NCBI GenBank assembly: GCA_016926835.1
Contig: JAFGNX010000038.1
Span: forward strand, 1 to 42,259
Origin: Candidatus Aminicenantes bacterium
Lineage (GTDB): Bacteria; Acidobacteriota; Aminicenantia; UBA2199
Direction: 5' to 3'
DNA: 42,259 nucleotides
Under the pieces are notes generated by a model, which searched no databases, was not told the DNA's origin, and was given only the letters and a program-made list of their open reading frames with translations. Positions 3,803 through 39,338 of the stretch are shown here, piece by piece. Made by a program: the position numbers and the translations under genes. Positions within the stretch are counted from its first letter, which is position 1. Each line of letters starts with the position of its first letter.

Positions 3803-3836
3803 TGATCACAGTTGAAGTGGCGCGAAACAGATATAA

Positions 3837-3865: not shown

Positions 3866-3874
3866 CAAACCGCC

Positions 3875-3974: not shown

Positions 3975-4952
3975 CTACCTGATGGTGGATTGGGAGTGAT
4001 CCAGGATGCGTTGGCGCAGTTCCCCGGGAGAAACCGTGGCGGTACCGACCTTTTCCACAACCAGTGACGCGGCGGCATTGGCGAGGATAACCGCTTCACG
4101 CAGGGCGGCGCCGGATGACAAAGCCAGAACCAACACGGCCGTCACGGTATCTCCCGCGCCCGTGACGTCGTACACTTCATGCGCCCAGGCGGGTATGTGA
4201 AAACATTGTCGGCGATGTTCGGCGGCGGTGATGCCCTCTTCTCCGCGAGTAATCATTGCGAAACGGCATGAAAAGCGACGCTGAAGAAGACGGGCGGCTT
4301 TTTCGGGGTTGTGAATGGGTTCACCCAGTAATTTTTCGCTTTCTGTCAAATTGGGCGTAATCCCGGTTACACCGTTGTACAGATGAGCGTTGGCCGGTTT
4401 GGGGTCCACTACCAGAGGAATGCCGGAAATGGAGGCCAGTTTATGCAGGTTGCGCATGAGGCTGGAAGTCACGGTCCCCTTGGCGTAGTCCGAAACCAGG
4501 ACTGCATCAGTTGATACGGCTTTCAAACCGGCAGAAAGCTGCTTCATGGCCAGGGGAGAAATGCAAGCTGCCGGAAGCTCATGGTCAATCCGCACGATCT
4601 GTTGCCGGAAAGACAAAACACGTGTCTTGGTAATGGTGGAATAACCGGGATCCGAGATCACCAGATCCTGATCCGGCATGAGCGTGCGAAAAGCCCGGCC
4701 CGATTCATCATGGCCCAATACGCCCAAGAGCTGCACAGACGCTCCGAGTGCAATGATGTTGGCTGCCACATTGCCGGCTCCACCCGGGCGGATTTCTTCT
4801 CTCTGGACATGCAGAACGGGGACCGGGGCCTCCGGAGAAATGCGCTCTACACGGCCGAAAAGGTAACGATCCAGGATCAGGTCTCCCGCGACAAGTACGT
4901 GGCGGTCGGAAAAAGCGGTCAGCAGTTCATCCAGTCGTTTGCGTGGGATCAT
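3975..4952 (-). CDS. hldA: D-glycero-beta-D-manno-heptose-7-phosphate kinase (RfaE domain I / pfkB family)
   Basis: From MIPRKRLDELL the sequence reads VLVAGDLILDRYLFGRVERISPEAPVPVL...GGAGNVAANI...DVTGAGDT. The ATG overlaps the upstream gene's stop (TGATG). The ORF-track start at 5060 is probably too long. Confidence 0.75.
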   Translation of the reverse strand: MIPRKRLDELLTAFSDRHVLVAGDLILDRYLFGRVERISPEAPVPVLHVQREEIRPGGAGNVAANIIALGASVQLLGVLGHDESGRAFRTLMPDQDLVISDPGYSTITKTRVLSFRQQIVRIDHELPAACISPLAMKQLSAGLKAVSTDAVLVSDYAKGTVTSSLMRNLHKLASISGIPLVVDPKPANAHLYNGVTGITPNLTESEKLLGEPIHNPEKAARLLQRRFSCRFAMITRGEEGITAAEHRRQCFHIPAWAHEVYDVTGAGDTVTAVLVLALSSGAALREAVILANAAASLVVEKVGTATVSPGELRQRILDHSQSTIR

Positions 4953-6151
4953 CAGGCCTCCGTTCCGGTATGGCATTGAATGGCCTCGGGACTCAACGCG
5001 GACACAAAAGGCAGAGAGATTATGAACATGAACAGGAACTGGATTTCCGTATCCCCCCAATTGTATTCAAACAAACCCGATACCAGAAAAGCGACCCCAA
5101 CGAAAAGAGCGGCGGTTGCGGTGCGGCGCTGCAGAGCGCCGCCGTGTCGTCGTAACTGCAGCAGGGACAGCAAAAGGGAAACGAAAAACATGACCAGCAC
5201 AAGAGCGGCCGGCAGTCCACGCTCCGCCAGGATGTGCAGGAAGTTGTTGTGAAGGTGCGGGTTGTCCTGCTTCGCGTCCGGGTGGCGATAATCGGAATAT
5301 ATCAGTTTGATGGTGTCGGGGCCGGAACCCGTGAGCGGATGGTCCAGAAAGATCCGCCAACCCGTATACACCATATGGATGCGATCACGGTTTGTGGGGT
5401 CCGACGGGTCCGCCACGGACCGGATGCGGTCGGATACGGAATGGGGCAGCAGCATCCATATGACGACCATCAGCGGTGTCATCGCCAGTAAGATTCTGGG
5501 ACGCCGTGCCACAATATACAGAATCATGGCAACAGCTGTTCCCACCCACATTGAGCGGGTCAGGGACAACAGGATCGCCGTCAAAATCACAAGCAGTGCG
5601 GCCGCGATCAGGCCGCGGCGACGCAGTAACGTTTCTCCCGGTTGCATGATCCAGACTGAGAAAAACACGAAAACCATCATCAGCAGGCCGGACCAGGTCA
5701 TCCAGTGTGAGGTAAGGCCACGCAGGCGGTGATCAAGGCTGATTCCACTGCGTGCCGCCATTGCAATGCCCAGCAGAGCGGAAAATACAGCAGAAATGAG
5801 CACGATGGACAGGCAGATGCGCAAGCGCCGGGGAGAGCAAAGCATTTTTTGGAAAACAGGGATCAACAGGAAAACCAGGAGTTCACGGTTGTCCGCCAGG
5901 CTGGTAAGGGGACTTCGGGAACACATTGTGGAGATCAGGGTGATTGCGGCGAATGTCAACAGCCAGAACGCGTAGGGAGGAATGGGAAAGAGAGATTCTC
6001 CCCGCAGAAGTGAGACGATCCAAACGGCCAGCAGCAGGCTGAACAGCAGTGAGCAGGCGGCCATGGAAAAGGGGATCATGAACAAGGCCAGCAACAGGGT
6101 CCACCATGCGGGTTCAGCGGATATACTGAAATACGGCTTTAAGGACGTCAT
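4952..6151 (-). CDS. O-antigen ligase / Wzy_C family polytopic membrane protein
   Basis: About 10-12 predicted TM segments plus a loop with RSMWVG...HNNFLHILAERG, typical of the O-antigen ligase family. The start is uncertain (6187, 6151 or 6079). Confidence 0.65.
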   Translation of the reverse strand: MTSLKPYFSISAEPAWWTLLLALFMIPFSMAACSLLFSLLLAVWIVSLLRGESLFPIPPYAFWLLTFAAITLISTMCSRSPLTSLADNRELLVFLLIPVFQKMLCSPRRLRICLSIVLISAVFSALLGIAMAARSGISLDHRLRGLTSHWMTWSGLLMMVFVFFSVWIMQPGETLLRRRGLIAAALLVILTAILLSLTRSMWVGTAVAMILYIVARRPRILLAMTPLMVVIWMLLPHSVSDRIRSVADPSDPTNRDRIHMVYTGWRIFLDHPLTGSGPDTIKLIYSDYRHPDAKQDNPHLHNNFLHILAERGLPAALVLVMFFVSLLLSLLQLRRHGGALQRRTATAALFVGVAFLVSGLFEYNWGDTEIQFLFMFIISLPFVSALSPEAIQCHTGTEA

Positions 6152-7160
6152 CGGGCGAAATCTCCTGCATGCATCGGATTGTATCATAGCGGCAGCGGCG
6201 CTGCGAGCAGGGACGGCAGGGCAGGTCGGCCTGGAGAATGGTTACTTTCCGGCTGCGCCAGGGGCCGCTGACGGCGGGTAGATTCGGTCCGTACAAAGCC
6301 ACCAGCGGAGTCTTTGTCAGCGAAGCCAGGTGAAGGGGACCCGAATCCACTCCGACATAAGCGCCAGACAGGGAAACCAGGGAGAGAATGCCCGGCAGCG
6401 AAAGTTTTCCCGTCAAGTTGTCCAGGGGGTGGCACGCGGCCAACCGGGAGGCGGTGGCGCGCTCCTCGACGGAATGCCCGATCAGCGCTACATGCAGGCC
6501 CCTGTCAATTAATCCCCGGGTCAGGGCGTGAAAATGAGGAAAGCCCCAGTTGCGAAAGCGGTTTCCCGCGCCTACATGAATTACGACCCGGGTGGGATCA
6601 AAAGAAACGTGAGCAGGGCCAGCCGGGTTGTCAATGCGGATGGTCGGGTAAAAAGGTATCGGCCGGTGGGGAATACCGAAATGCTCCAGCAGGCGCACTT
6701 GGTTGGCCACGGAGTGCCGCGGCATCCGCCGAGGATGGCGTCGGGTCAATCGGTTATAAGCCCAGTTGCGGTTGCGAGTGAGATAGCCGATGCGGTGAGG
6801 AACTCCGCTGATTCGGCTAAGGAGCGCGCTATGAGGACCTGAGTGAAAATCGACCGTCACGTTGCATGCCAGGCGACGAATCTGGCGCCGGAATGACAGC
6901 AACGAGGCCGGCCCGGGATGACGATCCATAACCAAGACTTCATCAACATGGGGGAAGGCACGAACGATGTCGGCGTAGGCAGGTTCCGTGAGGTACGCCA
7001 CTTTTACCCGGGGAAATCTGCGCGCAAACAACTCCAATGCCGGCAGGGTAAAGATGATGTCTCCCAAAAGCCGGGGACGCAGAAATAAAACACAATCACC
7101 GATATCCTGCGCGGAAAGAGGGCTGGATACCAGTGCAAAAGCCGATGGCGTGGGGTTCAC
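6114..7160 (-). CDS. GT9 ADP-heptose:LPS heptosyltransferase
   Basis: 348 aa. Motifs seen are [29 protein letters not shown] and the C-terminal [10 protein letters not shown]. The GTG start overlaps the trm112-like stop (GTGA). Confidence 0.8.
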
Positions 7161-27640: not shown

Positions 27641-27735
27641 TTCCTGAGAAAATGACGCTTCCAGAAGTGGTCGCCGTAACCGGTAGCCGAGGAATGAGCC
27701 GCGGGCTTGATTTCGTGTGAAAACGTCGTTGCCTG

Positions 27736-27744
27736 TGGTATACT
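27736..27744 (+). promoter_or_regulatory. Extended -10 element directly upstream of the murG-murJ fusion
   Basis: TGgTATACT at 27736-27744, 10 nt before ATG 27755. Confidence 0.4.
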
Positions 27745-27754
27745 GGCAGCCAAT

Positions 27755-30700
27755 ATGACAGCCATGAAAATCGTGTTTACCGGTGGCGGTACCGGTGGGC
27801 ATGTATACCCCAACATCGCCATCTACGAGACTGTCAAATCAGCAATACCACAGGCATCTTTTCTATACATCGGCACACGCGGGGGGGCGGAGGCGCGCAT
27901 TGTTCCCAAAATGCCCCAACCGATGGGATTTGTGACCGTACCGTCCATGGGTTTGCCCCAGAGAGTCCGCAGCCTGAAAACCGTTTGGGCGTTGGCGGTC
28001 ATGTTGGCGGGAACGGTAAAGAGTTATTTTGTTCTAAAACGTTTCCGCCCGGATGTTGTAGTGGGGAGTGGCGGCTATGTGGCGGCCCCGGTGATGCTGG
28101 CGGCATCAATATTGAAACTCAAAGTGTTTGTTCATGAACAGAACGCGGTGCCGGGACGCTTGAATCGCCTGATTTCGAGATACGCCAATCGAATCGGGGT
28201 TTCATTTGCTTCTTCAGCAAGGTTCTTCCCCAGTGAAAAAGTGACGGTTACCGGATATCCCCTGCGTCGTGCCATAACGGAATCAACTGCCGGCGACGTC
28301 CGGCGCAAGCTCGGAATTCCGATTTCCAACCGGGTGGTGTTTGTATTCGGCGGCAGCGGAGGAGCCCGTTCCATTAACCGGGCCATGATCGAATTGATCC
28401 CCATGCTGATTGCCCGCGATGGTTTGACCGTGATTCTTTCCACCGGCAGGGGGTATTCACGGGAATACAAGGCCTATGACGACACCATTCGCGGACTGGA
28501 ACGCATCGGTTGCCCAGTGGAAATCCCCGGGCGCCTGATCATTCGTGAGTACTTTGATAATATCGATGAAATTTACGCCGTAGCCGACCTGGTAGTATGC
28601 AGAGCCGGAGCGGGAACCATAAAAGAGATCACCACTGTGGGATTGCCGTCGATTGTGATTCCCAAGAGCGATCTTCCGGGTGACCACCAGATCCTGAACG
28701 CCATCGAAGTCGAGAAATCCGGCGGCTGCCGTGTCGTATATGAAGTGGTCAACCCAGTAACGGGACGCAGGGAATTGGATGTACCTGAAGTCACGCTGTT
28801 TCAGTCGATTATTGAATTGACCGGTGACGATGATGCCTTGCAATCGATGCGCGATGCACTGAAAGTCGCCGACCCGAGGGAAAGCAATGAAAAAATTCTC
28901 GCGGAGATAAAAGGCCTGGCCGTGGGCCGCCCCCAAGATGAAGAGCGGGAAGTTCGCGTGTTCTACCTCCAGGAACCCGAGAGTGAACTCACCCATGAAC
29001 TGGTGTTCGAAGCCACCACTGTGGGCAATACACTGTGGAGTGATATCAGCCTGGATACAGGTGGAGGCGAAGTCATGGCTGAAATCCGCCAACTTGGCGG
29101 TGGTGAGCGACTGATCATTAAGCCCAGAAGAGGCCCGGTCCTGGTGAATCATGAGCCGGTCGTGCAATGGGCGGAGTTGGCAACCGGGGATATGGTCGAG
29201 ATCGGATCATGTTCTCTGCAGTTGAAAAGCTATCAAGAGAAGATCAACAGCGTCCGCGATTTGAAATCCACCACCTCAATGATGATGGGTTCATCTCTGG
29301 GAATCGTTTTTTCGCGGCTCAGTGGTTTTATCCGGGAGATGGTTTCCGCGGCTGTTTTCGGAGCCGGTCGCGCGATGGATGTGTTTGCCGTGGGGCTGAC
29401 GGTCTCAAATTTTATGCGGCGGGTCGTGGCGGAGAACGCCCTGGACAATGCTTTCCTGCCGATTTTTCTACGTCTTTTTCACCGCAGCTCCCGCAAAAAG
29501 ACCTGGGAGGCCTCATCTTCTCTCATCAACTTTACACTGCTGATTTCCCTGATGTTGACCATTACCGGCATCCTGATTACACCCCTTTTGATTCGATGGC
29601 TGTATCCGGGTTTCGGGATCAAGGGCATCACGGGACTTGCCGTGAATATGACGCGTTTCATGTTTCCATACCTGTTTCTGGTGACGGTGGCCGCCATACT
29701 CGCGGTGTGGTTGAAAGCGTTCAACCGCTTCGGACTGGCGGAATCATCAGCGGCGCTTTTTTCAATCGGCACCATTGCCGGAATTCTCATGGGACACGCC
29801 TGGCTGGGTGTTTATTCACTGGCATTCGGCGTATTGTTGGGAGGGTTGTTGCAGATCGTTTTCCTTATTCCATTCACTTTGCGTATCCTGAGACAACCGT
29901 CCCTGGGGTTTTTCCATCGCCCCCATATCCATTTTTCCAGCACGGTCAACAAGAAGTATTATCGGCAACTTGGGCCCATCTCGCTGGATGTGTTTCTGTC
30001 CAACACATCTGAAATCGTGAATCAATCGCTGGCTTCGCTTCTGCCAAGCGGTTCCATCTCGTTTCTCTATTTTTCACGCCGCATATTCAGCTTGCCTTTC
30101 GCCGTGATCTCTCAAGCCATAAACAGTGTCATCCTGAGGCAATTTTCCGCAAAAATCGCCCTGTTCGACCGTGACAGAGCCAAACGACTTTTTGTTGACG
30201 GGATCCGTATCAATCTCTTTCTCCTGGTTCCGGTATCCATCCTCATGATTTACCTTGCCAATCCGCTGGTTTCATTGCTGCTTCAACGCCATAGTTTCGA
30301 TGCGATCGCAGTCAGTCGCACGGCATATGCTTTGCAGTTTTACGCCATCGGCCTGGTGGGGTGGGGGATTCATTCTTTAACGGTCCGCATATTTTCAGCG
30401 CGACTGGATATTCAGACCTCGATGAAGCTGAATTTTTTTATGCTGGCAGGCAACATCGTTCTGGCTGTGTTGCTGGTGAGAACATCGCTGGGTTATGCCG
30501 GATTGGCACTGGCCGCTTCCATTTCGTACATGGTGTTTGCGGTGATCCGCATCGTGGTATTGCGGCAACGTCTGTTGCGTGAAGAGATTCAGGTGGAAGC
30601 GGGACAATTGCTCGTCAGTCTGGCCAAAACCGCAGGGGCGGCTGTGATGATGGTCATTGTACTGGCGGAGTCCCGCCAGTTGTTCGCGCGTATTGTTTTT

Positions 30701-31525
30701 GAATCCCGGATCCTGGAACATACGGTCACCCTGCTTTCCCTTTCTTTTGTTGGTATGGCGGTCTATCTCCTCACCTCTTTGCTGTTGAAAAACACCGAGA
30801 TTCTTTTCTTCCGCAGCCGCTGGTTGCGGCCGTCCGTGCAACCGCCGATTTCAATGCTATCGCCTTTTCGTTTTCTGGAGCGGGTTTCCGGTGATCCCAA
30901 TAAATATCGCCGTGACTTCCATTACAAGATCAATCTGTACTGTTCCAGCCCGGAGTGGGAAATCCGCAATGTGGGTGTCAAGTTGATCGGTCTGTTTCAC
31001 GACACATCAAAAGTTTCCCTGCTCATCAATCTGCTTCGCGATGCCGGGGAAAAAGGATTTATCCGGCGCAACGCCCTGACTGCATTGTCACAGATGAAGA
31101 GCTGGGATCCCGAATGGCCGCCACTGTTTCGCCGCCTGCTGCAGGATACTTATTATGAAGTGAGGGTGGCCGCGCTCAAACACCTGACGCTGACATTGTC
31201 GGATGACGACTATGCGGATTTCAGCGACCTGGTGAGGAAACGCTTGCGTCGCGGCGGTGTAGAAGAATGCCTGGCTGCCATGGAGCTGGTGGCCAATCAC
31301 GGCGAAAAAGAAGACCTGGATTTCATGGAGCCGTTTTTCCTGCATTCCAATTCACGGATTCGCGAGGGTTTGCTGGAATTATTCCGCGCTTTTCATCGTC
31401 GTGGCCGGTTAACCGGGGAAGAGGTCAAGAATTTGATCGCGCGTGTATTGATCACGTCCAACAACCTGCAACCCGAGTTCCGGCTCAAGGCCTTGATTCG
31501 GCGGATTTACGAGGAGATCGGTTAA
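27755..31525 (+). CDS. murG/murJ: Fusion protein: MurG glycosyltransferase + FHA-like domain + MurJ/MviN lipid II flippase + C-terminal HEAT-like repeats (1256 aa)
   Basis: Single uninterrupted frame with four modules. MurG (nt ~27764-28921): GGGTGGHVYP, HEQN, GGSGGA, CRAGAGT, DHQILNA. FHA-like (28949-29230). MurJ (29267-30820): SRLSGFIREMVSAAVFGAGRAMDVF...AENALDNAFLPIF plus multiple TM segments. HEAT-like (30821-31522): EWEIRNVGVKLIG, YYEVRVAALKHL, NSRIREGLLELF. Confidence 0.85.
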   Translation: MTAMKIVFTGGGTGGHVYPNIAIYETVKSAIPQASFLYIGTRGGAEARIVPKMPQPMGFVTVPSMGLPQRVRSLKTVWALAVMLAGTVKSYFVLKRFRPDVVVGSGGYVAAPVMLAASILKLKVFVHEQNAVPGRLNRLISRYANRIGVSFASSARFFPSEKVTVTGYPLRRAITESTAGDVRRKLGIPISNRVVFVFGGSGGARSINRAMIELIPMLIARDGLTVILSTGRGYSREYKAYDDTIRGLERIGCPVEIPGRLIIREYFDNIDEIYAVADLVVCRAGAGTIKEITTVGLPSIVIPKSDLPGDHQILNAIEVEKSGGCRVVYEVVNPVTGRRELDVPEVTLFQSIIELTGDDDALQSMRDALKVADPRESNEKILAEIKGLAVGRPQDEEREVRVFYLQEPESELTHELVFEATTVGNTLWSDISLDTGGGEVMAEIRQLGGGERLIIKPRRGPVLVNHEPVVQWAELATGDMVEIGSCSLQLKSYQEKINSVRDLKSTTSMMMGSSLGIVFSRLSGFIREMVSAAVFGAGRAMDVFAVGLTVSNFMRRVVAENALDNAFLPIFLRLFHRSSRKKTWEASSSLINFTLLISLMLTITGILITPLLIRWLYPGFGIKGITGLAVNMTRFMFPYLFLVTVAAILAVWLKAFNRFGLAESSAALFSIGTIAGILMGHAWLGVYSLAFGVLLGGLLQIVFLIPFTLRILRQPSLGFFHRPHIHFSSTVNKKYYRQLGPISLDVFLSNTSEIVNQSLASLLPSGSISFLYFSRRIFSLPFAVISQAINSVILRQFSAKIALFDRDRAKRLFVDGIRINLFLLVPVSILMIYLANPLVSLLLQRHSFDAIAVSRTAYALQFYAIGLVGWGIHSLTVRIFSARLDIQTSMKLNFFMLAGNIVLAVLLVRTSLGYAGLALAASISYMVFAVIRIVVLRQRLLREEIQVEAGQLLVSLAKTAGAAVMMVIVLAESRQLFARIVFESRILEHTVTLLSLSFVGMAVYLLTSLLLKNTEILFFRSRWLRPSVQPPISMLSPFRFLERVSGDPNKYRRDFHYKINLYCSSPEWEIRNVGVKLIGLFHDTSKVSLLINLLRDAGEKGFIRRNALTALSQMKSWDPEWPPLFRRLLQDTYYEVRVAALKHLTLTLSDDDYADFSDLVRKRLRRGGVEECLAAMELVANHGEKEDLDFMEPFFLHSNSRIREGLLELFRAFHRRGRLTGEEVKNLIARVLITSNNLQPEFRLKALIRRIYEEIG

Positions 31526-31527
31526 AC

Positions 31528-32625
31528 ATGGTTCATTGGATCATTGAATGGATGGGATCGATTCCCGGGCAACGACTGTTCGGCTATATTAGTTTCCGCG
31601 CCCTTCTGGCCATGCTGACGGCTTTTATCATGGGGGTGGTTCTGGGCCGTCACTTGATCAATATCATTTTTCAACTGCGTTTTCGAGATCGTATTCGGGA
31701 TTACGGAGATATATCCAGTCGTGATAAAGAAGGCACTCCCACCATGGGGGGACTGATCATATTCCTGGCGTTTCTGGTGGCGGTGTTGTTGTGGTGCCGC
31801 TTGGACAACATGTTCGTGGGGATAGTCGTGTTCGCGTCTTTCTGGTTTGTTTCCCTCGGTTTTTTTGACGACTATCTGAAGCATTTGCGCGGCCACAGTG
31901 ACGCCGGGCTGAGCCGTACCGCCAAATTGTTTTTTCAGGCCGTTTTCGGATTGATCCTGGCATTGCTGGTTCTGTCTCCGGAAAGCACACCTTTCCCCGC
32001 CGAAATCGCCAAGAGCCTGTTTGTTCCTTTTTTTAAGAACCCTGTCGTGGATTTGGGATTTTTTTATTATCCCTTTGTGATTCTTACCGTGATCGCCATA
32101 TCCAATTCAATTAACTTTGCGGACGGATTGGACGGCTTGGCAACCGTTCCCGTGGCATTGCTGGCGGCGGTTTACGCAATTTTTGCGTACATTATCGGTA
32201 ATGCCGTCATTGCTGAGTATCTGCTGTACCCGTTCGTATCCGGATCCGGGGAACTGGTTGTGGCCATGGCGGCGCTGGTTGGCGGGTTGGCTGCTTTCCT
32301 GTGGTTCAACACGTATCCGGCTCAGATTTTCATGGGAGATACGGGCGCCATGTTTCTCGGCGGAGTCATCGGCACCACAGCCGTATTGCTGAAAAAGGAA
32401 TTGCTGTTTGTGATCGCCGGAGGGATTTTCGTACTGGAGTTTCTTTCCGTGTTTATCCAGGACTACGTCGGGATCAAGTGGTTGAAACGCCGCATCTTCT
32501 ATCGCGCTCCCATTCATCACACGTTTCAATTCCTGGGTATTGCCGAACCCAAGATCGTGATCCGGTTCTGGATTGTTTCTGTGTTATTTGCCTTGATCAG
32601 CCTCATCAGTATCAAATTGCGATAA
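31528..32625 (+). CDS. mraY: Phospho-N-acetylmuramoyl-pentapeptide transferase
   Basis: KEGTPTMGG, NFADGLDGLA, FMGDTGAMFLGG and APIHHTFQ are present. GAGGAG Shine-Dalgarno lies upstream. The ATG is 3 nt after the fusion gene's stop. Confidence 0.92.
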   Translation: MVHWIIEWMGSIPGQRLFGYISFRALLAMLTAFIMGVVLGRHLINIIFQLRFRDRIRDYGDISSRDKEGTPTMGGLIIFLAFLVAVLLWCRLDNMFVGIVVFASFWFVSLGFFDDYLKHLRGHSDAGLSRTAKLFFQAVFGLILALLVLSPESTPFPAEIAKSLFVPFFKNPVVDLGFFYYPFVILTVIAISNSINFADGLDGLATVPVALLAAVYAIFAYIIGNAVIAEYLLYPFVSGSGELVVAMAALVGGLAAFLWFNTYPAQIFMGDTGAMFLGGVIGTTAVLLKKELLFVIAGGIFVLEFLSVFIQDYVGIKWLKRRIFYRAPIHHTFQFLGIAEPKIVIRFWIVSVLFALISLISIKLR

Positions 32626-32631: not shown

Positions 32632-33252
32632 GTGAACATGACACGGAGCGACTCAACCCTTCAGTTTGTACTGCAATTTCTCAGCCGTCATGTCGGTGAA
32701 TGGATGGCATACCTCGGTGTCCGGGCCGCTGTGATGCTGGCAGCCGTGCTAGTGCTCTCATTGATGCTTGTGCTGGGAAGAACGGTATTCCCGGTGTGGT
32801 TTATCTTCATGTTTCCGCTTCCTCCGCTCTTGTTCATTTGTGCGAGACCTGTATTGCGTCGCAAAGAGTGGCGCTTGATGTCTCTTTTTCTCCATGATAC
32901 AACCCGTGCACCCATACCGCGGCGGGGGGTGTTCCAGTTGTGGTTGCCCGCCGCACTGGACGCTCTTGCCAGGGATTCGGGAGCAACCTTTTCCAGTACA
33001 GATCGGTCACGAATGATGAGACGTTGGCGATTGGAACGAATGGCCCTTGAATTGCTCGCGCTGCTGCCATTTCTGGGTGTCGGCGTCGCCCTGGCGTGGC
33101 ATGCGCCCTGGCCGCTGCTGGTCTACGTGATCGTGAGCGCGATGGTTGTGGGATGGGGGTTCGCCGCCGGGAGTCTGGCGCCGGTGTTCATCCTGGTGCT
33201 GACGGCACGGGCCTTTCCCGAAGCATGCGGCGAAAATTCAATCATTGAATAA
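32632..33252 (+). CDS. Hypothetical integral membrane protein (about 4 TM)
   Basis: 206-aa ORF starting 7 nt after mraY (GTG 32632 or ATG 32638). It has hydrophobic segments and no motif I recognise. Confidence 0.5.
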   Translation: MNMTRSDSTLQFVLQFLSRHVGEWMAYLGVRAAVMLAAVLVLSLMLVLGRTVFPVWFIFMFPLPPLLFICARPVLRRKEWRLMSLFLHDTTRAPIPRRGVFQLWLPAALDALARDSGATFSSTDRSRMMRRWRLERMALELLALLPFLGVGVALAWHAPWPLLVYVIVSAMVVGWGFAAGSLAPVFILVLTARAFPEACGENSIIE

Positions 33253-34900: not shown

Positions 34901-35917
34901 TCAGCGTTTGAGGTCGAAAACCAGAGTGACTTTACGGGTTTCCGGATCCAGGTTCAAATCGATGCTTTGAATGACACTTTTCTGAGAGTTGCGGATGTCC
35001 ACGGTTAAATGTGAATCATTAACGGGAAGTTTCTGGATCAGGGTCAGACGTGATTTGTCTTGATCCTCACTCAGGAACTGGGCTGCCAGTTCCCGGATGG
35101 AATGCATGACCGAATCGTCTCCTTTCCCGTTTGATGGTTCTTTTGCGGTTTCCGCCGGGACGTCGGCAGGGGATTGAGAAGCGACTTGGGAAAGCGGCCG
35201 GCTTTTCAGATCATCCAGGCGATCCACGGAAAACTTGCGCATCGGCAGGGCGTTTTTCTCAATGATCTCCTGACGGATATTGGTGTCGAACTGGACCGGC
35301 ATGCTGACAGTGGCGGAAAGACCTTGCTGGGCGTGGATAGAGGCCTTGATCAGAGCCAGTGTTTTACTGGAAATTTCCCGCAGGGTTTCAATGACACCGT
35401 TTCCCGTTGTGGCTACCGCCTCAAAATAGGGTGCATTGAACTCATTCAGGGTCTGGTTCAGTACAACCGTTGGAATGATGTTGCCCAGGTCACGTTTGTT
35501 GTATTGGAAAACCAGCGGGATCTTTGCGATGCTTTTTCCGCAGGCCGCGAGATTCACCTTCAGATTCTCCAGGCTCTGGGTATTTGCCTGCCCCATGAGT
35601 TCCTGTGAGTCCGCCACGAAAACCACGCCATCGGCTCCCTTGAGCACGAGTTTGCGCGTGGCGTCGTAAAAAATCTGCCCCGGAACGGTGTACAACTGGA
35701 ATTTTGCCTGGTATCCCTTAATCAGGCCCACGTTCATGGGCAATAGGTCAAAAAACAAGGTGCGTTCAATATCGGTTTCAATGCTGACCAATTCTCCCCG
35801 GCTTTTGGGATTGGTGACGGAAAATATGTACTGCAGATTGGTGGTTTTACCGGACAGACCGGGGCCGTAATACACAATCTTGGCGGTCACCTGTTTTGCG
35901 GCATGGTTGATGAACAT
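34901..35917 (-). CDS. MglA-like Ras-superfamily GTPase with a ~140-aa C-terminal extension
   Basis: MFINHAAKQVTAKIVYYGPGLSGKTTNLQYIF...RTLFFDLLP...LYTVPGQIFYDATRKLVLKGADGVVFVADSQ...QYNKRDL is nearly colinear with Myxococcus MglA as I recall it. A further ~140 aa follow. Confidence 0.8.
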   Translation of the reverse strand: MFINHAAKQVTAKIVYYGPGLSGKTTNLQYIFSVTNPKSRGELVSIETDIERTLFFDLLPMNVGLIKGYQAKFQLYTVPGQIFYDATRKLVLKGADGVVFVADSQELMGQANTQSLENLKVNLAACGKSIAKIPLVFQYNKRDLGNIIPTVVLNQTLNEFNAPYFEAVATTGNGVIETLREISSKTLALIKASIHAQQGLSATVSMPVQFDTNIRQEIIEKNALPMRKFSVDRLDDLKSRPLSQVASQSPADVPAETAKEPSNGKGDDSVMHSIRELAAQFLSEDQDKSRLTLIQKLPVNDSHLTVDIRNSQKSVIQSIDLNLDPETRKVTLVFDLKR

Positions 35918-35957
35918 GAACGGCTCGTCTCGATTCTGCCACGATCGTGCGGTTGTG

Positions 35958-37187
35958 TCAAGGCCGCTTCTCCGGTCTGTCCGGCATGAACTGTTCATAT
36001 ATATCCGGATAATATTGTCGCAACCAGGTCAGGTAGCGGCGGGCGTCCCTTTCACCGCATTTCCACTGGCCGGTAATCAAACCGTCCCGTTCCATCCGCA
36101 GCAAATTCTGTTTGCCTCTGATTCCCGGAAATGAGGGGAAAGAGTGTTGGAGGAGGGTTCCGGGCAATGGCACAAAATGGTGAACCTGAGCGTGGATCCG
36201 GTGATTGCGGTGCATGCGGCGAACGAAATTCAGGGTGGTTTCCAACTCATCCGGCGTTTCATCGGGGAAGCCCACCATCACATCAAGGTTGACCCCGAAT
36301 CCAGCCTCATTCGCCACAATTATCGATGCCTCTACATCATCGGGCGTGTGTCCGCGTCGCAGGCGGCGCAAACGCTCCGGACAGCCGCTCTGAGCTCCCA
36401 GGGTCAGGCGGCGGTGTGATACGTGTTTACGCAGAAGTTGTGACCACTCGCGATTCAGGGACCCGGGACGGATCTCGCTGGGGAAGATGCCGTATTCGAT
36501 ATATTCAAAACAGAAGCTGCGGGCGGATGCCAGTAATTCCGCCACTGACTCCCGCGGATCTGTTCCCACCCGGGGGTCAATGTATTCCAGCGCCGAGGGT
36601 GAGATGAAATTCGCACGCCTGGCGCCGCGGTCATGAAGTTGATCCAAATAACATCGCACCGACTCCAGAGATCGAAAGCGGGGGGGGCCTGACAGAGGAA
36701 CAGCGCAATAGGTGCAATTGTGAACACATCCCCGCATCAGTTCCAGGGGCGGTAATGTGCGGATTGAACGGGAAATGGGGAGCCAGTTGGAGATGTCGTT
36801 TCCCCGGCCGCCGTTGTATTCCGTTTGCAGCTCCAGGCCGTTTGCCAAATCCCGGGCGAGTGGCGGAAGCGCCGCCTCGCCGTCACCGGTGATGATGGAA
36901 TGAAACCCGATGCGGCGGGTAAACCCGGGCGCTGCAGAGGCATGGGGTCCGCCGGCCACCAGAATCACGCCTTTTTCGCGCAGGGAAAGAATCTCCCGGT
37001 GAAGATCCGGTAACTGGGTTGACAGGAAAGAAAAGAGCACGACATCTTTGGGCCGTGCTTCTGCGGGGGGGGTGTTCACCACTTGAATGGCGGGGGCGCC
37101 GGGGATGGCCTCCCAGGCATTGAGCAGCAGGGGAGCGCTCAGGCGGGTCAGCGGCGTCAGCCGGAAAAAAACACGCGCATTCGGCAT
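35958..37187 (-). CDS. B12-binding-domain-type radical SAM protein
   Basis: CVHNCTYC (CX3CX2C) is preceded by a Rossmann-like N-domain (VILVAGGPHASAAP). The preferred start is ATG 37187 (MPNARVFF) because of the promoter geometry. Confidence 0.78.
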   Translation of the reverse strand: MPNARVFFRLTPLTRLSAPLLLNAWEAIPGAPAIQVVNTPPAEARPKDVVLFSFLSTQLPDLHREILSLREKGVILVAGGPHASAAPGFTRRIGFHSIITGDGEAALPPLARDLANGLELQTEYNGGRGNDISNWLPISRSIRTLPPLELMRGCVHNCTYCAVPLSGPPRFRSLESVRCYLDQLHDRGARRANFISPSALEYIDPRVGTDPRESVAELLASARSFCFEYIEYGIFPSEIRPGSLNREWSQLLRKHVSHRRLTLGAQSGCPERLRRLRRGHTPDDVEASIIVANEAGFGVNLDVMVGFPDETPDELETTLNFVRRMHRNHRIHAQVHHFVPLPGTLLQHSFPSFPGIRGKQNLLRMERDGLITGQWKCGERDARRYLTWLRQYYPDIYEQFMPDRPEKRP

Positions 37188-37194
37188 GAACCCC

Positions 37195-37203
37195 ATTCTA
37201 GCA
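37195..37203 (-). promoter_or_regulatory. Extended -10 of the radical SAM / mglA-like unit, apparently leaderless
   Basis: The minus strand reads TGcTAGAAT, followed by 7 nt and then ATG 37187. Confidence 0.4.
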
Positions 37204-37264
37204 CATGCCGGGTCCCGCACGGTCTGGACATGGCCTCGGCAATATCCCGGGAAGCGATGCCGCA

Positions 37265-37294
37265 TTGACAGGCGGCTGCAGGGTGGAGTAGGAT
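37265..37294 (+). promoter_or_regulatory. Candidate promoter of GT2 / yciB-nudix
   Basis: TTGACA (37265-37270), an 18-nt spacer, TAGGAT (37289-37294). GAGGAAA Shine-Dalgarno precedes ATG 37351. Confidence 0.35.
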
Positions 37295-37350
37295 TAGACA
37301 CCGGAAGATTTGTGTTCCCGGTATTCCATTACCGATTTGAGGAAACGCCA

Positions 37351-38253
37351 ATGGATGTATCCATCGTGATTCCTGTTCGCAACGAGGCTGAGTTTATTGA
37401 GTCTTGCCTGCAGGGCGTTCGTTCGCAGCATACATCCATGAACATGGAAATCATTGTGATTGACTCCGGGTCTACGGATGGGACCCGGGAACTGGTCTCG
37501 CGATTCCCGGGGGTACGCCTGATCCGTCAAACCGAAGCGGATTTCGGTCATGGCCGTACCCGTAACCTGGGAGCCCGATTGGCCCGGGGAAAATGGGTGA
37601 CGTTTCTAAATGGAGATGCCGAACCGGACGGCCCATACTGGCTGGAAACCCTGGTACGTCCATTGAGGCGAGATCACGGTCTGGCCGGAGTGTTCAGTCG
37701 CCACCTGCCGCGGCCGGATTGTCCCATCTACATGCAGCGGGACCTGCTGCGCGCGTTGCCCCCGGGCAATGGAATTGTGTTGAGGCAGTGGGATGACCGG
37801 CTGCCAATCCATTTTTCAACGGTGAGTGCGGCCATTCCGCGCTCTTTGTGGAAAGAACTGCCTTTCAGCGAAGCCGTTGATATCGCCGAAGATCAGGAAT
37901 GGGCGCGCCGGGTGCTGCAGGCGGGCTACCGGATACTGTACGAACCCCGCTCAAGGGTATTCCATTCGCACGATTATTCACCAATGGAGATGTTCCGGAT
38001 AAAACGGGCCATATCACACGCGACTCCCCGGTTCCCGAATCGGACATCGGCCTGGATATTCGGTTTGCCGCTTTGTTTGGGCGGGGCGCTGGTGCGGATC
38101 TTTGGAGATATGCGTTTTGTCATGAAGCGCCGCCCGGGGTTTCCTCTATTTTTGCATGAGATCGGCCGCGCTGTCTCAGCGCGGATATACGGTTTTTCGG
38201 GCCGGTTCACGGGCTGGTTGAAGGCTGCCGCCCGGAGCGGGGATAGAAGTTGA
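37351..38253 (+). CDS. GT2-family glycosyltransferase
   Basis: MDVSIVIPVRNEAEFIESCLQGVRSQ...EIIVIDSGSTDGT is the GT-A N-terminal signature, and a DAE motif is present. The ORF-track start at 37087 overlaps the divergent gene. Confidence 0.8.
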   Translation: MDVSIVIPVRNEAEFIESCLQGVRSQHTSMNMEIIVIDSGSTDGTRELVSRFPGVRLIRQTEADFGHGRTRNLGARLARGKWVTFLNGDAEPDGPYWLETLVRPLRRDHGLAGVFSRHLPRPDCPIYMQRDLLRALPPGNGIVLRQWDDRLPIHFSTVSAAIPRSLWKELPFSEAVDIAEDQEWARRVLQAGYRILYEPRSRVFHSHDYSPMEMFRIKRAISHATPRFPNRTSAWIFGLPLCLGGALVRIFGDMRFVMKRRPGFPLFLHEIGRAVSARIYGFSGRFTGWLKAAARSGDRS

Positions 38254-39338
38254 ACCGGGCCCAATTGCTGCGCAGCCTGGCCCCCGGTTTTCTGCCCCTT
38301 ATCGTGTTTATTCTGGCCGATTCCATATGGGGAACCCGGGTCGGACTCCTGGTGGCGGTGGTTTTCGGCATTTTTGAACTGGGTGTTTCGTGGATAAGGG
38401 AGCGTGTCCTCGATCGGTTCCTGCTGTTGGACATGGGGCTGATTGTATTGTTGGGATTGATCTCCCTGTGGCAAAGCAACGACCTTTTCTTTAAATTGAA
38501 GCCGGCCGTGATCGAAGTGTTTTTTGCTTTTCTGTTGGGAATATCCGCGTGGTCTTCGCGCAACATCGTGTGGATGATGTCGCGACGCTATTTGAAAAAC
38601 CTAAGCGTGGATGCAACAGCCATGCAAAGCATGCAACTGGCCATGCGGCCTTTGTTCTGGATTTTTCTGGTCCACGCGGGGCTAACGGTGTATGCGGCAC
38701 TGGCAATGAGCCGGCAGGCATGGGCCTTTATCAGCGGCGGGCTTTTTTACCTTGTGTTTGTTGGCTTTGCTCTGACGCGGATCCTGAAACAGAAATGGAA
38801 TAAATTGCGTTGGAAAAGAGATTACAAAGATGATGAGTGGTTTGACCTGGTGGATGAATCCGGGCGCGTGACCGGCCGGGCGCCTCGCACGGTTTGTCAC
38901 TCATCTCAGGGCTTGTTGCACCCTGTTGTACATCTGCATGTACTGGATGACCGGGACCGGATTTTTTTGCAGAAAAGGCCTGAATGCAAACAGATCCAAC
39001 CGGGGAAATGGGACACCGCGGTTGGCGGGCATATCCATTCCGGAGAAAAGGTTGAAGACGCATTGAAGCGGGAAGCTTTTGAAGAAATCGGCCTGAAAGA
39101 CTTCCGGGCAGTGTTACTGGGAGTGTACCGCTGGGACTCCGCCGTGGAATCGGAACTGGTCTATCTTTTTATTACCCGCCATTCCGGCCCTTTACGCTTA
39201 AACCCGCAGGAAGTGACTGAAGGCAGATTCTGGCGTATCCGCCAGATCCGGGATCAACTGGAGAGCGGTGTTTTTACGCCCAATTTTGAAAGCGAATTTC
39301 CCCTGGTGGTGGAAAACCACCAGAAACTTCTGGCATGA
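38250..39338 (+). CDS. Fusion of a YciB-like (intracellular septation protein A family) membrane domain and an IDI-like Nudix hydrolase domain
   Basis: The N-terminal ~190 aa have 5 TM segments and FFKLKPAVIEVFFAFLLG, resembling E. coli YciB FIKWKVTVIY. The C-terminal part has the Nudix box GGHIHSGEKVEDALKREAFEEIGL. The TTG start overlaps the GT2 stop. Confidence 0.65.
   Translation: MNRAQLLRSLAPGFLPLIVFILADSIWGTRVGLLVAVVFGIFELGVSWIRERVLDRFLLLDMGLIVLLGLISLWQSNDLFFKLKPAVIEVFFAFLLGISAWSSRNIVWMMSRRYLKNLSVDATAMQSMQLAMRPLFWIFLVHAGLTVYAALAMSRQAWAFISGGLFYLVFVGFALTRILKQKWNKLRWKRDYKDDEWFDLVDESGRVTGRAPRTVCHSSQGLLHPVVHLHVLDDRDRIFLQKRPECKQIQPGKWDTAVGGHIHSGEKVEDALKREAFEEIGLKDFRAVLLGVYRWDSAVESELVYLFITRHSGPLRLNPQEVTEGRFWRIRQIRDQLESGVFTPNFESEFPLVVENHQKLLA

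What the first reader, a model, noticed from the sequence alone, without database searches (positions are those of the whole stretch)
27755..32625. MurG, an FHA-like domain, MurJ and a HEAT tail encoded as one 1256-aa polypeptide, with mraY 3 nt downstream
A single stop-free 3771-nt frame joins four modules:
- a complete MurG-type glycosyltransferase (G-loop GGGTGGH, HEQN, GGSGGA, DHQxxNA);
- a ~95-aa FHA-like module;
- a complete MurJ/MviN flippase;
- a ~230-aa HEAT-like tail.

mraY follows with its own Shine-Dalgarno sequence. Lipid I synthesis, lipid II synthesis and lipid II flipping are therefore encoded by two adjacent genes. None of the usual dcw neighbours (murD, ftsW, murC) is present.

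The fusion is topologically coherent. MurJ has cytoplasmic N and C termini in the solved structures, so MurG, the FHA-like module and the HEAT tail would all face the cytoplasm. A covalent synthase-flippase link would imply substrate channelling.

I am not aware of a described MurG-MurJ fusion, but that needs a database check.
Basis: partly seen in the sequence, partly recalled or inferred. Interest (0 to 1): 0.85.

Follow-up and report, generated by a model that had tools for sequence, protein, structure and literature searches.

The report
Fused lipid II synthase-flippase gene
This uncultured Aminicenantes bacterium makes MurG (which completes the cell-wall building block lipid II) and MurJ (which flips it across the membrane) as one protein, encoded next to the preceding enzyme MraY; the fusion is conserved in hundreds of relatives, carries only automatic names, and I found no paper describing it.

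Summary
Window 27755-31525 (+) is one 1256-codon gene encoding MurG, an FHA-fold module, a full MurJ and a HEAT-repeat tail. mraY starts 2 nt after its stop codon.

It is not an assembly artefact. More than 120 full-length homologues (48-89% identity) exist, almost all from Aminicenantes/Acidobacteriota MAGs. The nearest aligns without gaps, with dN/dS about 0.07-0.12 in every module.

The interpretation needs three corrections:
- The FHA module has the fold but lacks the canonical phosphothreonine-binding residues.
- The HEAT tail is not an appendage of MurJ. It belongs to an older, widespread family. That family occurs as MurG-HEAT (about 700 aa) or as a stand-alone protein in at least eight phylum-level lineages, and its gene always lies immediately upstream of mraY. 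FHA+MurJ therefore looks like an insertion into a MurG-HEAT protein.
- MurJ has fused to MurG-HEAT a second time, in the opposite order (MurJ-MurG-HEAT), in Syntrophobacteria.

Best reading: a MraY / MurG / MurJ precursor assembly line, with the HEAT module as the MraY-side adaptor.

Databases name these proteins automatically, and I found no publication on them. I could not test whether the same genomes also carry a canonical second set of these genes.

The parts
27755..31525 (+). Fusion gene, 1256 aa plus TAA: MurG - FHA-fold module - MurJ - HEAT tail
   Evidence: ORF. Pfam and NCBIfam hits. More than 120 full-length homologues. Gapless codon alignment to L001 with dN/dS 0.075.
27755..28930 (+).
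   Evidence: PF03033 and PF04101. TIGR01133 231.8 bits. E. coli MurG 1f0k 124 bits. Most residues of the catalytic motifs are invariant in 29 homologues, including T9-H16 and HEQN. The aa 336-395 profile also matches MurG-HEAT proteins of other phyla.
28940..29254 (+). FHA-fold module, aa 396-500, lacking the canonical phosphothreonine-binding residues
   Evidence: AF2 pLDDT 88.3, all-beta. The Foldseek top 50 are all FHA domains; best is M. tuberculosis FhaA 3poa, E 3.6e-5, TM 0.78. The profile's six best PDB matches are all FHA domains, at E 0.05-0.9. Pfam FHA or YscD hits in only 3 of 29 members. dN/dS 0.09.
29291..30802 (+). MurJ (MOP-family lipid II flippase), aa 513-1016, all 14 helices covered by homology
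   Evidence: PF03023 262 bits. TIGR01695 287 bits, above cut-off. Solved MurJ structures match at E 1e-46 to 1e-48. Equivalents of E. coli R18, R24, D39, R52 and R270 are R521, R527, D542, R555 and R776.
30803..31522 (+). Cytoplasmic linker (aa 1017-1035) and HEAT-repeat tail (aa 1036-1256) of a distinct MraY-associated family
   Evidence: HEAT_2 above cut-off. AF2 pLDDT 91.8, 14 helices. Foldseek finds generic ARM/HEAT solenoids. Sixteen residues are conserved across four architectures. mraY lies immediately downstream in every locus that extends that far.
31512..31517 (+). Shine-Dalgarno-like GAGGAG for mraY, inside the last codons of the fusion gene
   Evidence: Sequence.
31528..32625 (+). 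mraY (lipid I synthase), 365 aa; start 2 nt after the fusion's stop codon
   Evidence: TIGR00445 297.8 bits, cut-off 192. PF00953 and MraY_sig1. End-to-end alignment to E. coli MraY 8g01, 265 bits.
27717..27744 (+). Promoter-like site (GTGAAA-16-TATACT with TG) 10 nt upstream of the ATG; weak evidence only
   Evidence: Consensus scan. The number of sites in the region is not above the shuffled expectation.
32632..33252 (+). 206-aa hydrophobic ORF 7 nt after mraY; membership of the unit is uncertain
   Evidence: No Pfam hit. Detectable similarity only in the closest relative L001. A 225-aa gene without Pfam hits occupies the same position in L081.

Best explanation
The gene encodes a single-chain lipid II synthase-flippase of an Aminicenantes (Acidobacteriota) bacterium. 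Its expression is translationally coupled to the lipid I synthase MraY.

Shown:
- The gene is intact and conserved, and every module is under purifying selection.
- MurG, MurJ and MraY keep their family-defining motifs.
- The middle module has an FHA fold without the phosphothreonine-binding residues.
- The tail belongs to a specific HEAT family whose gene is always followed by mraY.

Inferred history. An older two-gene unit, murG-HEAT then mraY, is widespread in Gemmatimonadota, Latescibacterota, KSB1, Syntrophobacteria and other Acidobacteriota. In the Aminicenantes lineage it acquired an FHA+MurJ cassette between MurG and the HEAT domain. This is topologically allowed because both ends of MurJ are cytoplasmic.

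Inferred mechanism:
1. MraY makes lipid I.
2. The HEAT domain holds the fusion protein at MraY.
3. MurG, tethered through the rigid FHA module about 12 residues before MurJ helix 1, converts lipid I to lipid II at the cytoplasmic face, next to the flippase entrance.
4. MurJ flips lipid II.

The fusion fixes a 1:1 ratio and close proximity of synthase and flippase. The overlapping or abutting stop and start codons couple MraY synthesis to it.
For: Reality and constraint:
- More than 120 full-length clusters at 48-89% identity.
- 50 species-representative genomes carry the fusion or contig-truncated or frameshift-split copies of it.
- Gapless alignment of 1255 codons to L001, with dN/dS of 0.07-0.12 per module.

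Enzymes look functional:
- Most residues of the MurG motifs are invariant, including T9-H16 and HEQN.
- MurJ scores above the equivalog cut-off and keeps all four essential arginines and D39.
- MraY aligns end to end with E. coli MraY (265 bits), so it looks like an ordinary orthologue rather than a diverged paralogue.

HEAT-MraY link:
- Every locus whose contig extends past the HEAT-bearing gene (77 of 80) has an MraY ORF directly after it, whatever the architecture.
- The mraY start overlaps that gene's stop codon by 4 nt in 42 of the 76 loci where a start could be placed.
- Stand-alone HEAT proteins without MurG also sit directly upstream of mraY (L068, L070, L076).
- Sixteen residues (W1068, R1071, N1072, G1074, K1076, L1077, G1079, G1101, R1105, N1106, D1131, Y1133, E1135, V1136, R1137, R1203) are shared by all four architectures.

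MurG-MurJ link:
- A second fusion in the opposite order, MurJ-MurG-HEAT, forms more than 40 clusters in Syntrophobacteria. It sits at the same purD-purE-sua5 locus where Desulfacinum infernum has unfused MurG-HEAT.
- In KSB1, murJ is a separate gene directly upstream of murG-HEAT.

Only the two-gene unit is conserved. Flanking genes differ between loci.
Against: - No direct evidence of a HEAT-MraY contact or of channelling; both rest on gene adjacency and fusion logic.
- I could not scan any whole genome, so a second canonical mraY, murG or murJ in a dcw cluster is not excluded.
- The MurG part falls just below the NCBIfam equivalog cut-off in all three lineages tested: 226-232 bits against 250.
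- The equivalent of E. coli R270 is not fixed in the family. It is R776 in the window's clade, R at +3 in most others, and absent in a few. A subclade also lacks the R18 equivalent.
- In E. coli the three enzymes work as separate proteins, and passage of the lipid is explained by affinity gradients (PMC9046198). Fusions of non-consecutive Mur enzymes such as MurG-MurC and MurD-FtsW also exist (PMC10214165). A fusion therefore does not by itself prove substrate hand-off.
Confidence: 0.6

Rival explanations
1. A specialised second pathway. The murG-(murJ)-HEAT / mraY unit is a paralogous lipid II module, for example for recycling-fed, stress or non-division wall synthesis, that coexists with canonical dcw-cluster copies.
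For: - The unit lies outside any dcw cluster in the window and in nearly all loci.
- The MurG part scores just under the equivalog cut-off.
- RefSeq names the MurG-HEAT of cultured Desulfacinum and Desulfosoma only 'glycosyltransferase'.
- In KSB1 the unit is followed by murF and the recycling ligase mpl.
- In two lineages L,D-transpeptidase genes lie upstream.
- A substitute MurG is known in Streptomyces relatives (PMC8092295).
Against: - MraY and MurJ pass their equivalog cut-offs by wide margins.
- The window MraY is about as similar to E. coli's dcw MraY (265 bits) as to HEAT-linked MraYs of other phyla (283-406 bits). These MraYs therefore do not form a diverged paralogue group.
- Selection on all modules is strong.
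- Duplicate mraY genes are uncommon (general knowledge).
Confidence: 0.2
2. Co-expression only. The fusion exists to fix stoichiometry, stability or membrane targeting of MurG, with no direct lipid hand-off. The HEAT and FHA modules recruit other partners, such as Mur ligases, cytoskeletal or divisome proteins.
For: - Natural chimeras of non-consecutive Mur enzymes are explained this way (PMC10214165).
- HEAT/ARM solenoids are generic protein-binding scaffolds, and Foldseek finds only such generic matches.
- MurG is known to scaffold other wall enzymes (titles and abstracts of PMC6420597 and PMC2170320).
Against: - It does not explain why the HEAT family is tied to mraY even where MurG is absent.
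- It does not explain why MurJ in particular was captured twice, in different orders.
Confidence: 0.15
3. The MurJ part is mainly a membrane anchor, or a transporter of a different substrate, rather than the lipid II flippase.
For: In one subclade (P0070, P0079, P0097, P0113, P0116, P0120) the equivalents of E. coli R18 and/or R52 are replaced. The R270 equivalent is variable across the family.
Against: - The window protein and its clade keep R18, R24, D39, R52 and R270 equivalents.
- It scores 287 bits on the MurJ equivalog model.
- The MurJ part shows the strongest purifying selection of all modules, dN/dS 0.068.
Confidence: 0.04
4. Assembly or frameshift artefact joining separate murG and murJ genes.
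For: A few MAG copies are split into two or three ORFs (L026, L050, L053).
Against: Hundreds of independent assemblies from NCBI, JGI, ENA and Logan carry the same uninterrupted frame. The junction regions are conserved at the protein level and under purifying selection.
Confidence: 0.01

Closest known systems
Natural Mur chimeras (MurE-MurF, MurC-Ddl, MurC-MurB, MurG-MurC, MurD-FtsW, MraY-MurG), surveyed in PMC10214165
   Same: Two peptidoglycan-precursor enzymes encoded as one polypeptide. The arrangement is lineage-specific and taken as evidence for a multi-enzyme complex.
   Different: - That survey excluded unidentified species and does not list MurG-MurJ.
- Here a peripheral glycosyltransferase is joined to a 14-helix transporter, so synthesis and export are coupled.
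- Two non-enzymatic modules (FHA fold, HEAT) are part of the design.
- MurJ sits inside an older MurG-HEAT protein rather than end to end.
Mycobacterium tuberculosis MviN (MurJ)-pseudokinase regulated by the FHA protein FhaA (PDB 3oun, 3poa, 2lc1)
   Same: A MurJ homologue carries extra cytoplasmic domains, and an FHA domain acts at the flippase. FhaA's FHA domain is the best structural match of the window's middle module.
   Different: - In mycobacteria the FHA is a separate protein that reads a phosphothreonine on a C-terminal pseudokinase domain.
- Here the FHA fold is covalently N-terminal to MurJ, lacks the phosphothreonine-binding residues, and there is no kinase-like domain.
- The structural resemblance may simply reflect the common bacterial FHA fold.
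E. coli MraY, MurG and MurJ as separate proteins (affinity-gradient model, PMC9046198)
   Same: The same three reactions and the same catalytic families. MraY aligns end to end and MurJ over nearly its full length with the E. coli enzymes; MurG aligns over E. coli residues 8-307 of 364.
   Different: - In E. coli there is no covalent link.
- mraY and murG lie in the dcw cluster.
- murJ is not adjacent to them (general knowledge).
- There is no HEAT or FHA module.
MurG-HEAT proteins (about 700 aa) of Syntrophobacteria, Gemmatimonadota, Latescibacterota, KSB1 and others (e.g. Desulfacinum hydrothermale WP_170920467.1)
   Same: The same HEAT family, with 16 shared residues. The same MurG C-terminal helices. 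The same immediate downstream mraY.
   Different: No FHA module and no MurJ inside the protein. Annotated only as MurG or 'glycosyltransferase'. I found no publication on this architecture either.
Degenerate FHA domains such as the cytoplasmic domain of type III secretion YscD (Pfam Yop-YscD_cpl)
   Same: FHA fold used next to a membrane machine. Two of 29 family members hit this Pfam model weakly.
   Different: There is no significant sequence relationship for the window protein itself.

Membership tests
MurG (GT28 lipid II synthase) | Both GT28 domains (PF03033 and PF04101) present above the gathering score | tested here: met
   111.1 and 91.8 bits against cut-offs of 26.2 and 22.
MurG (GT28 lipid II synthase) | Conserved G-loops, HEQN and the UDP-GlcNAc-binding motifs | tested here: met
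   GGGTGGH 10-16, HEQN 127-130, GGSGGA 199-204, DHQILNA 310-316. Most of these residues are invariant in 29 homologues, and the motifs align with E. coli MurG 1f0k.
MurG (GT28 lipid II synthase) | Score above the NCBIfam equivalog cut-off (TIGR01133, 250.25 bits) | tested here: not met
   231.8 bits. The unfused MurG-HEAT proteins of KSB1 and Desulfacinum score much the same, 225.8 and 229.6 bits.
MurG (GT28 lipid II synthase) | Transfers GlcNAc to lipid I | not testable with these tools
   Needs an enzyme assay or complementation.
MurJ (MOP-superfamily lipid II flippase) | Score above the equivalog cut-off (TIGR01695, 235.55 bits) and full-length coverage | tested here: met
   287.2 bits covering model positions 10-501 of 506. 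Aligns to residues 13-490 of the 511-residue solved MurJ 7waw.
MurJ (MOP-superfamily lipid II flippase) | Cavity residues essential in E. coli (R18, R24, R52, R270; the list of essential residues is from my own knowledge of the literature) | tested here: met
   R521, R527, R555 and R776 in the window protein, plus D542 = D39. Across the family the R270 equivalent moves to +3, and some members lack the R18 or R52 equivalent.
MurJ (MOP-superfamily lipid II flippase) | Flips lipid II | not testable with these tools
   Needs complementation of MurJ depletion or a flipping assay.
FHA domain | Eleven-strand beta-sandwich FHA fold | tested here: met
   AF2 pLDDT 88.3. All of the Foldseek top 50 are FHA domains, probability 1.00, TM up to 0.78.
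FHA domain | Sequence match to Pfam FHA (PF00498) at the gathering score | tested here: not met
   No hit for the window protein. One of 29 members hits at E 0.12, and two hit Yop-YscD_cpl at E >= 0.0013. The profile matches PDB FHA domains at E 0.05-0.9.
FHA domain | Phosphothreonine-binding Arg (GR), Ser/His (SxxH) and Asn (NG) | tested here: not met
   The alignment to EmbR (R312, S326, N348; residue roles from my own knowledge) puts N425 opposite the Arg, variable residues opposite Ser and His, and places the Asn in an EmbR loop absent from the profile, where the family has K-G.
HEAT repeat proteins | Pfam HEAT_2 above the gathering score and an alpha-solenoid fold | tested here: met
   30.3 bits against 27.7. 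AF2 pLDDT 91.8 with 14 helices. Foldseek matches importin-alpha, CpcE/F, alphaRep and the PP2A A subunit.
MraY (lipid I synthase), the downstream gene | Equivalog score, MraY signature and full-length alignment to solved MraY | tested here: met
   297.8 bits against 192.05, and MraY_sig1. Residues 3-365 align to residues 3-360 of E. coli MraY.
dcw (division and cell wall) gene cluster | mraY and murG embedded among murE, murF, murD, ftsW, murC and ftsQAZ | tested here: not met
   No such gene in the 42-kb window. No Mur ligase within 7 kb in 79 of 80 related loci. The exception is KSB1 L060, with murF and mpl downstream.

The most novel reading that the evidence does not exclude
The HEAT module is a dedicated MraY-docking adaptor that assembles MraY, MurG and, where fused, MurJ into one physical lipid II 'synthasome'. 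In it the lipid carrier passes from enzyme to enzyme and into the flippase entrance without diffusing away. The Aminicenantes protein would be its most integrated form, made by inserting a whole 14-helix transporter into a soluble two-domain protein. The independent reverse-order fusion in Syntrophobacteria would show that MurG-to-MurJ hand-off is a general feature of peptidoglycan synthesis, hidden in model organisms.
Probability: 0.35. Interest if true: 0.8.

Novelty: new variant of a known kind. Interest (0 to 1): 0.62.

Why it matters
How lipid II passes from its synthase to its flippase is still argued from indirect data in a few model species, as is whether MraY, MurG and MurJ form a complex.

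Two independent natural fusions of MurG with MurJ, plus a conserved HEAT module tied to mraY across many phyla, are comparative-genomic evidence for physical coupling of these steps. They also support MurJ as the partner of the lipid II synthase.

They offer practical tools:
- a single-chain synthase-flippase for cryo-EM and for coupled in vitro assays;
- a defined candidate interface (16 conserved HEAT residues) to mutate;
- cultured carriers of the simpler MurG-HEAT form (Desulfacinum, Desulfosoma) for genetics.

There is also an annotation problem. NCBI calls the fusion only 'MurJ', and calls MurG-HEAT only 'glycosyltransferase'. Pathway reconstructions for these lineages may therefore wrongly report murG as missing.

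Tried and rejected
- **Pfam scan of the middle module.** I scanned it alone and across 29 homologues. There were no usable hits, so FHA could not be assigned by sequence. Structure prediction was needed.
- **Function of the tail from structure.** Foldseek returned only generic ARM/HEAT solenoids at E about 1e-3, with no specific functional relative.
- **Conserved neighbours beyond mraY.** The acyltransferase upstream, the 206-aa ORF downstream, comM and the radical SAM gene recur only in the closest relatives (L001, partly L014, L017, L019, L048). I rejected them as parts of the unit.
- **Other dcw genes near the unit.** Searching 80 related loci with KSB1 MurF and Mpl as probes found them only in KSB1 itself.
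- **Extending the window's contig.** I looked up its edge genes. One is not on record and the other lies on a 5-kb contig.
- **Second gene copies in carrier genomes.** This was not possible.
- **'MurJ-HEAT' proteins.** Those in the representative search (P0121, P0126, P0170 and others) start inside the MurJ model, so they are contig-truncated fragments and not a separate architecture.
- **Promoter and terminator scan.** The number of sites was no higher than in shuffled sequence.
- **Literature.** Five searches found no description of MurG-MurJ or MurG-HEAT proteins. Aminicenantes genome papers in the library do not discuss peptidoglycan genes.

Full report
**1. The observation**

Window 27707..31525 (+) is a single ORF. 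From the ATG at 27755 it encodes 1256 aa and ends in TAA at 31523-31525. At the window's 53.7% GC, a stop-free run of this length has a chance probability of about 6e-24.

Pfam places these domains:

| Domain | Residues | Score |
|---|---|---|
| Glyco_transf_28 | 6-148 | 111.1 bits |
| Glyco_tran_28_C | 194-329 | 91.8 bits |
| MurJ | 532-978 | 262 bits |
| HEAT_2 | 1064-1142 | 30.3 bits (cut-off 27.7) |

NCBIfam gives murJ_mviN 287 bits (cut-off 235.6) and murG 231.8 bits, just under its 250.25 cut-off.

Most of their residues, including the whole G-loop T9-H16 and HEQN, are invariant in 29 homologues, and the motifs align with E. coli MurG 1f0k.

mraY starts at 31528, 2 nt after the stop, behind GAGGAG at 31512-31517. 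Its 365-aa product aligns end to end with E. coli MraY (265 bits) and passes the mraY equivalog cut-off by more than 100 bits.

None of the 32 other large ORFs of the window that I scanned against Pfam is a dcw gene.

**2. Not an artefact**

- A search of 5.8 billion proteins returned 337 relatives. The best 120 are nearly all full-length (1240-1277 aa, 100% coverage, 48-89% identity).
- They come from NCBI, JGI, ENA and Logan assemblies and are mostly labelled Candidatus Aminicenantes or Acidobacteriota.
- The closest genome locus, L001 (Aminicenantes UBA876), aligns over 1255 codons without a gap. Its dN/dS is 0.073 (MurG), 0.090 (FHA), 0.068 (MurJ), 0.124 (linker) and 0.076 (HEAT). dS is saturated, so these ratios are approximate.
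- A few MAG copies are split (L026, L050, L053). These are probably sequencing errors.

**3. Anatomy of the four modules**

Its profile also matches MurG-HEAT proteins of other phyla. In Desulfacinum the MurG model aligns through to position 352 of 353. MurG therefore spans aa 1-392.

*FHA-fold module.*
- A 29-sequence alignment of aa 390-505 gave a confident all-beta model (pLDDT 88.3).
- All 50 best PDB matches of that model are FHA domains. The best is M. tuberculosis FhaA (3poa, E 3.6e-5, TM 0.78). The FhaA-MviN complex 3oun ranks 27th.
- The sequence profile's six best PDB matches are also all FHA domains, but at E 0.05-0.9.
- Pfam FHA or YscD models hit only 3 of 29 members.
- In the alignment to EmbR, the phosphothreonine-binding Arg is replaced by the nearly invariant N425. 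The Ser and His positions are variable. The Asn lies in an EmbR loop that the family lacks, where the family has K-G.
- The module is thus FHA by fold but not a canonical phosphopeptide reader.

*MurJ.*
- It aligns to residues 13-490 of a solved 511-residue MurJ (7waw) and to E. coli MurJ 6cc4/7wag.
- The equivalents of E. coli R18, R24, D39, R52 and R270 are R521, R527, D542, R555 and R776.
- Across the family the R270 equivalent usually sits three residues later (IFRLPF). One subclade lacks the R18 or R52 equivalent.

*Tail.* It models as a 14-helix solenoid (pLDDT 91.8). It resembles importin-alpha, CpcE/F, alphaRep and the PP2A A subunit only generically.

*Topology.* Lys/Arg-rich segments flank MurJ on both sides. 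This step is an inference.

**4. The tail is the key to the history**

I scanned one genome per GTDB species with the tail profile. It found 111 loci, of which 80 were kept. I classified them with profiles of the five segments.

- L001-L050 and L053 carry the MurG-FHA-MurJ-HEAT fusion, complete or as contig-truncated or split copies.
- L069, labelled Planctomycetota, carries a divergent 1344-aa version.
- Most of L051-L080 carry a protein of about 680-720 aa made of MurG, its C-terminal helices and the same HEAT domain, with no MurJ. Their labels include Gemmatimonadota, Latescibacterota, KSB1, Glassbacteria, Thermoanaerobaculaceae, other Acidobacteriota and Deltaproteobacteria, among them cultured Desulfacinum infernum DSM 9756.
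- In L061 and L063, MurG and the HEAT protein are adjacent separate ORFs.
- In L068, L070 and L076, a stand-alone HEAT protein has no MurG nearby. In L068 and L076, L,D-transpeptidase genes lie upstream.

*Link to mraY.*
- Every locus whose contig extends past the HEAT-bearing gene (77 of 80) has an MraY ORF directly after it.
- The two genes overlap by 4 nt (ATGA) in 42 of the 76 loci where a start could be placed, and are 0-4 nt apart in about 18 more.
- Flanking genes otherwise differ between loci.

*Breadth of the family.*
- An exhaustive profile search of 1.84 billion cluster representatives found 1473 proteins at E<=1e-3 and 294 at E<=1e-10.
- Among the best 150 there are 47 MurG-HEAT, 9 MurG-(FHA)-MurJ-HEAT and 5 MurJ-MurG-HEAT proteins, plus fragments and generic multi-HEAT proteins.
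- Sixteen residues are conserved in all four architectures: W1068, R1071, N1072, G1074, K1076, L1077, G1079, G1101, R1105, N1106, D1131, Y1133, E1135, V1136, R1137 and R1203. This marks a specific family with a conserved surface (the printed numbers there are 5 too low).

**5. A second, independent MurJ fusion**

The reverse-order MurJ-MurG-HEAT protein (about 1200 aa) forms more than 40 clusters, named Syntrophobacteria or Deltaproteobacteria.

In the complete 4.7-Mb genome CP070692.1 it lies in the order purD, purE, sua5, fusion, mraY. That is the same neighbourhood in which D. infernum has purD, purE, sua5, MurG-HEAT, mraY. In that lineage, therefore, MurJ was added to the N-terminus of MurG-HEAT in place.

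In a KSB1 genome the order is murJ, murG-HEAT, mraY, murF, mpl, as separate genes.

MurJ has thus been brought next to, in front of, or inside MurG-HEAT on separate occasions.

**6. Mechanism**

Shown:
- a conserved unit of HEAT-bearing gene plus mraY, with coupled stop and start codons;
- MurG, MurJ and MraY sequences that look catalytically intact;
- repeated MurG-MurJ fusion.

Inferred:
- The HEAT domain docks on MraY, or on something made at MraY.
- MurG converts lipid I to lipid II beside MurJ.
- The FHA-fold module, only about 12 residues before MurJ helix 1, acts as a rigid connector or interaction pad rather than a phospho-sensor.
- From published MurJ structures (my own knowledge, not tested here), helices 1 and 8 frame the lateral entrance, and helices 13-14 form the groove for the lipid tail beside it. 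The N- and C-terminal attachment points of the inserted MurJ would then lie on the entrance side. This fits both the insertion and a short path for lipid II.

Caveats:
- E. coli manages with separate enzymes and affinity gradients (PMC9046198).
- Fusions of non-consecutive Mur enzymes exist (PMC10214165).
- Channelling therefore remains a hypothesis.

**7. The main open point**

I could not determine whether carriers also have canonical mraY, murG and murJ elsewhere.

For a housekeeping role:
- MraY and MurJ clear their equivalog cut-offs.
- The window MraY is nearly as close to E. coli MraY (265 bits) as to HEAT-linked MraYs of other phyla (283-406 bits).
- All modules are strongly constrained.

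For a specialised paralogue:
- The unit is isolated from the dcw cluster.
- MurG scores are slightly sub-threshold.
- mpl and L,D-transpeptidase genes are neighbours in some lineages.
- RefSeq gives cultured carriers only the generic name 'glycosyltransferase'.

I put the housekeeping reading at roughly three to one over the paralogue reading.

**8. What is known**

- The 2023 survey of natural Mur chimeras lists MurE-MurF, MurC-Ddl, MurC-MurB, MurG-MurC, MurD-FtsW and MraY-MurG. It excluded unidentified species and does not mention MurG-MurJ (PMC10214165).
- Full-text searches for MurG-MurJ fusions, MurG with HEAT repeats, and dcw arrangements in these phyla found nothing.
- Databases name the fusion automatically: 'MurJ' at NCBI and 'MurJ/MurG' at JGI.
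- The closest described system with an FHA domain at a MurJ homologue is the mycobacterial FhaA-MviN complex (PDB 3oun). It works through a separate FHA protein and a phosphorylated pseudokinase domain, neither of which is present here.

**9. Verdict**

- The fusion is real, conserved and, as far as the searchable literature goes, undescribed.
- It is best classed as a new variant among natural peptidoglycan-enzyme fusions.
- It is less exotic than 'four modules newly joined', and it is common in metagenome databases.
- Interest is 0.62. It would be higher if a HEAT-MraY interface and sole-copy status are shown.

Noticed in passing
L084 10001-13615 (CP070692.1) and L085 10001-13660; proteins P0200, P0270-P0310: A reverse-order fusion, MurJ-MurG-HEAT (about 1200 aa), is conserved in more than 40 clusters from Syntrophobacteria/Deltaproteobacteria MAGs, with mraY as the next gene. 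It lies in the same purD-purE-sua5 neighbourhood as the unfused MurG-HEAT of Desulfacinum infernum (L065).
   Followed up: partly
L068 6497-7780, L070 6749-7660, L076 6812-7744: Stand-alone HEAT proteins of the same family sit directly upstream of mraY with no MurG within the locus. In L068 and L076, YkuD L,D-transpeptidase genes lie just upstream.
   Followed up: partly
L060 4028-11633 (KSB1 single-cell genome): Five adjacent genes: murJ, murG-HEAT, mraY, murF and mpl (the recycling ligase, 413.9 bits against a 388.7 cut-off). This is a compact route from recycled tripeptide to flipped lipid II, and the only locus of 80 with Mur ligases nearby.
   Followed up: partly
Alignment A1, window protein aa 521, 555, 776-779: The arginine equivalent to E. 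coli MurJ R270 is at position 776 only in the window's clade and three residues later (IFRLPF) in most of the family; a few members have neither. A subclade (P0070, P0079, P0097, P0113, P0116, P0120) lacks the R18 and/or R52 equivalents.
   Followed up: partly
Proteins P0315, P0316, P0320 and P0317: Other MurJ fusions turned up: MurJ plus a Wzy_C O-antigen-ligase-like domain (about 1000 aa, one on a 1.6-Mb contig), and VanZ plus MurJ (838 aa).
   Followed up: no
window 38250-39338 (+); also L086 2617-3705: One 362-aa ORF combines an IspA (intracellular septation protein A) membrane domain (aa 14-176) with a NUDIX hydrolase domain (aa 224-335).
   Followed up: no
window 32632-33252 (+); L081 14876-15553: A 206-aa hydrophobic ORF with no Pfam hit starts 7 nt after mraY and overlaps the end of the convergent comM-like gene. 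Another Aminicenantes genome has a 225-aa gene without Pfam hits in the same position. Sequence similarity is detectable only to the closest relative, L001.
   Followed up: partly
L026, L050, L053: In three MAGs the fusion is broken into two to four overlapping ORFs (frameshifts). These are probably assembly or sequencing errors rather than real gene splits.
   Followed up: no
window 34901-37301 (-): A 365-aa ORF with only a weak Ras-family hit lies next to a B12-binding radical SAM gene and the comM-like gene. All three recur together in L001; the Ras-like ORF recurs beside comM in L017 as well.
   Followed up: no
Proteins P0321 (WP_170920467.1, Desulfacinum hydrothermale) and P0441 (WP_123290598.1, Desulfosoma caldarium); P0001 (HDP95745.1): RefSeq names the MurG-HEAT proteins of cultured species only 'glycosyltransferase', and NCBI names the four-module fusion only 'MurJ'. 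Automated pathway reconstructions may therefore score murG as absent in these lineages.
   Followed up: no
window 1681-7160 (-): The left part of the window carries outer-membrane and LPS-type genes: sigma-54, an LptB-like ABC ATPase, a PfkB-family sugar kinase, a Wzy_C O-antigen ligase-like gene and a GT9 heptosyltransferase. This is consistent with a diderm envelope.
   Followed up: no
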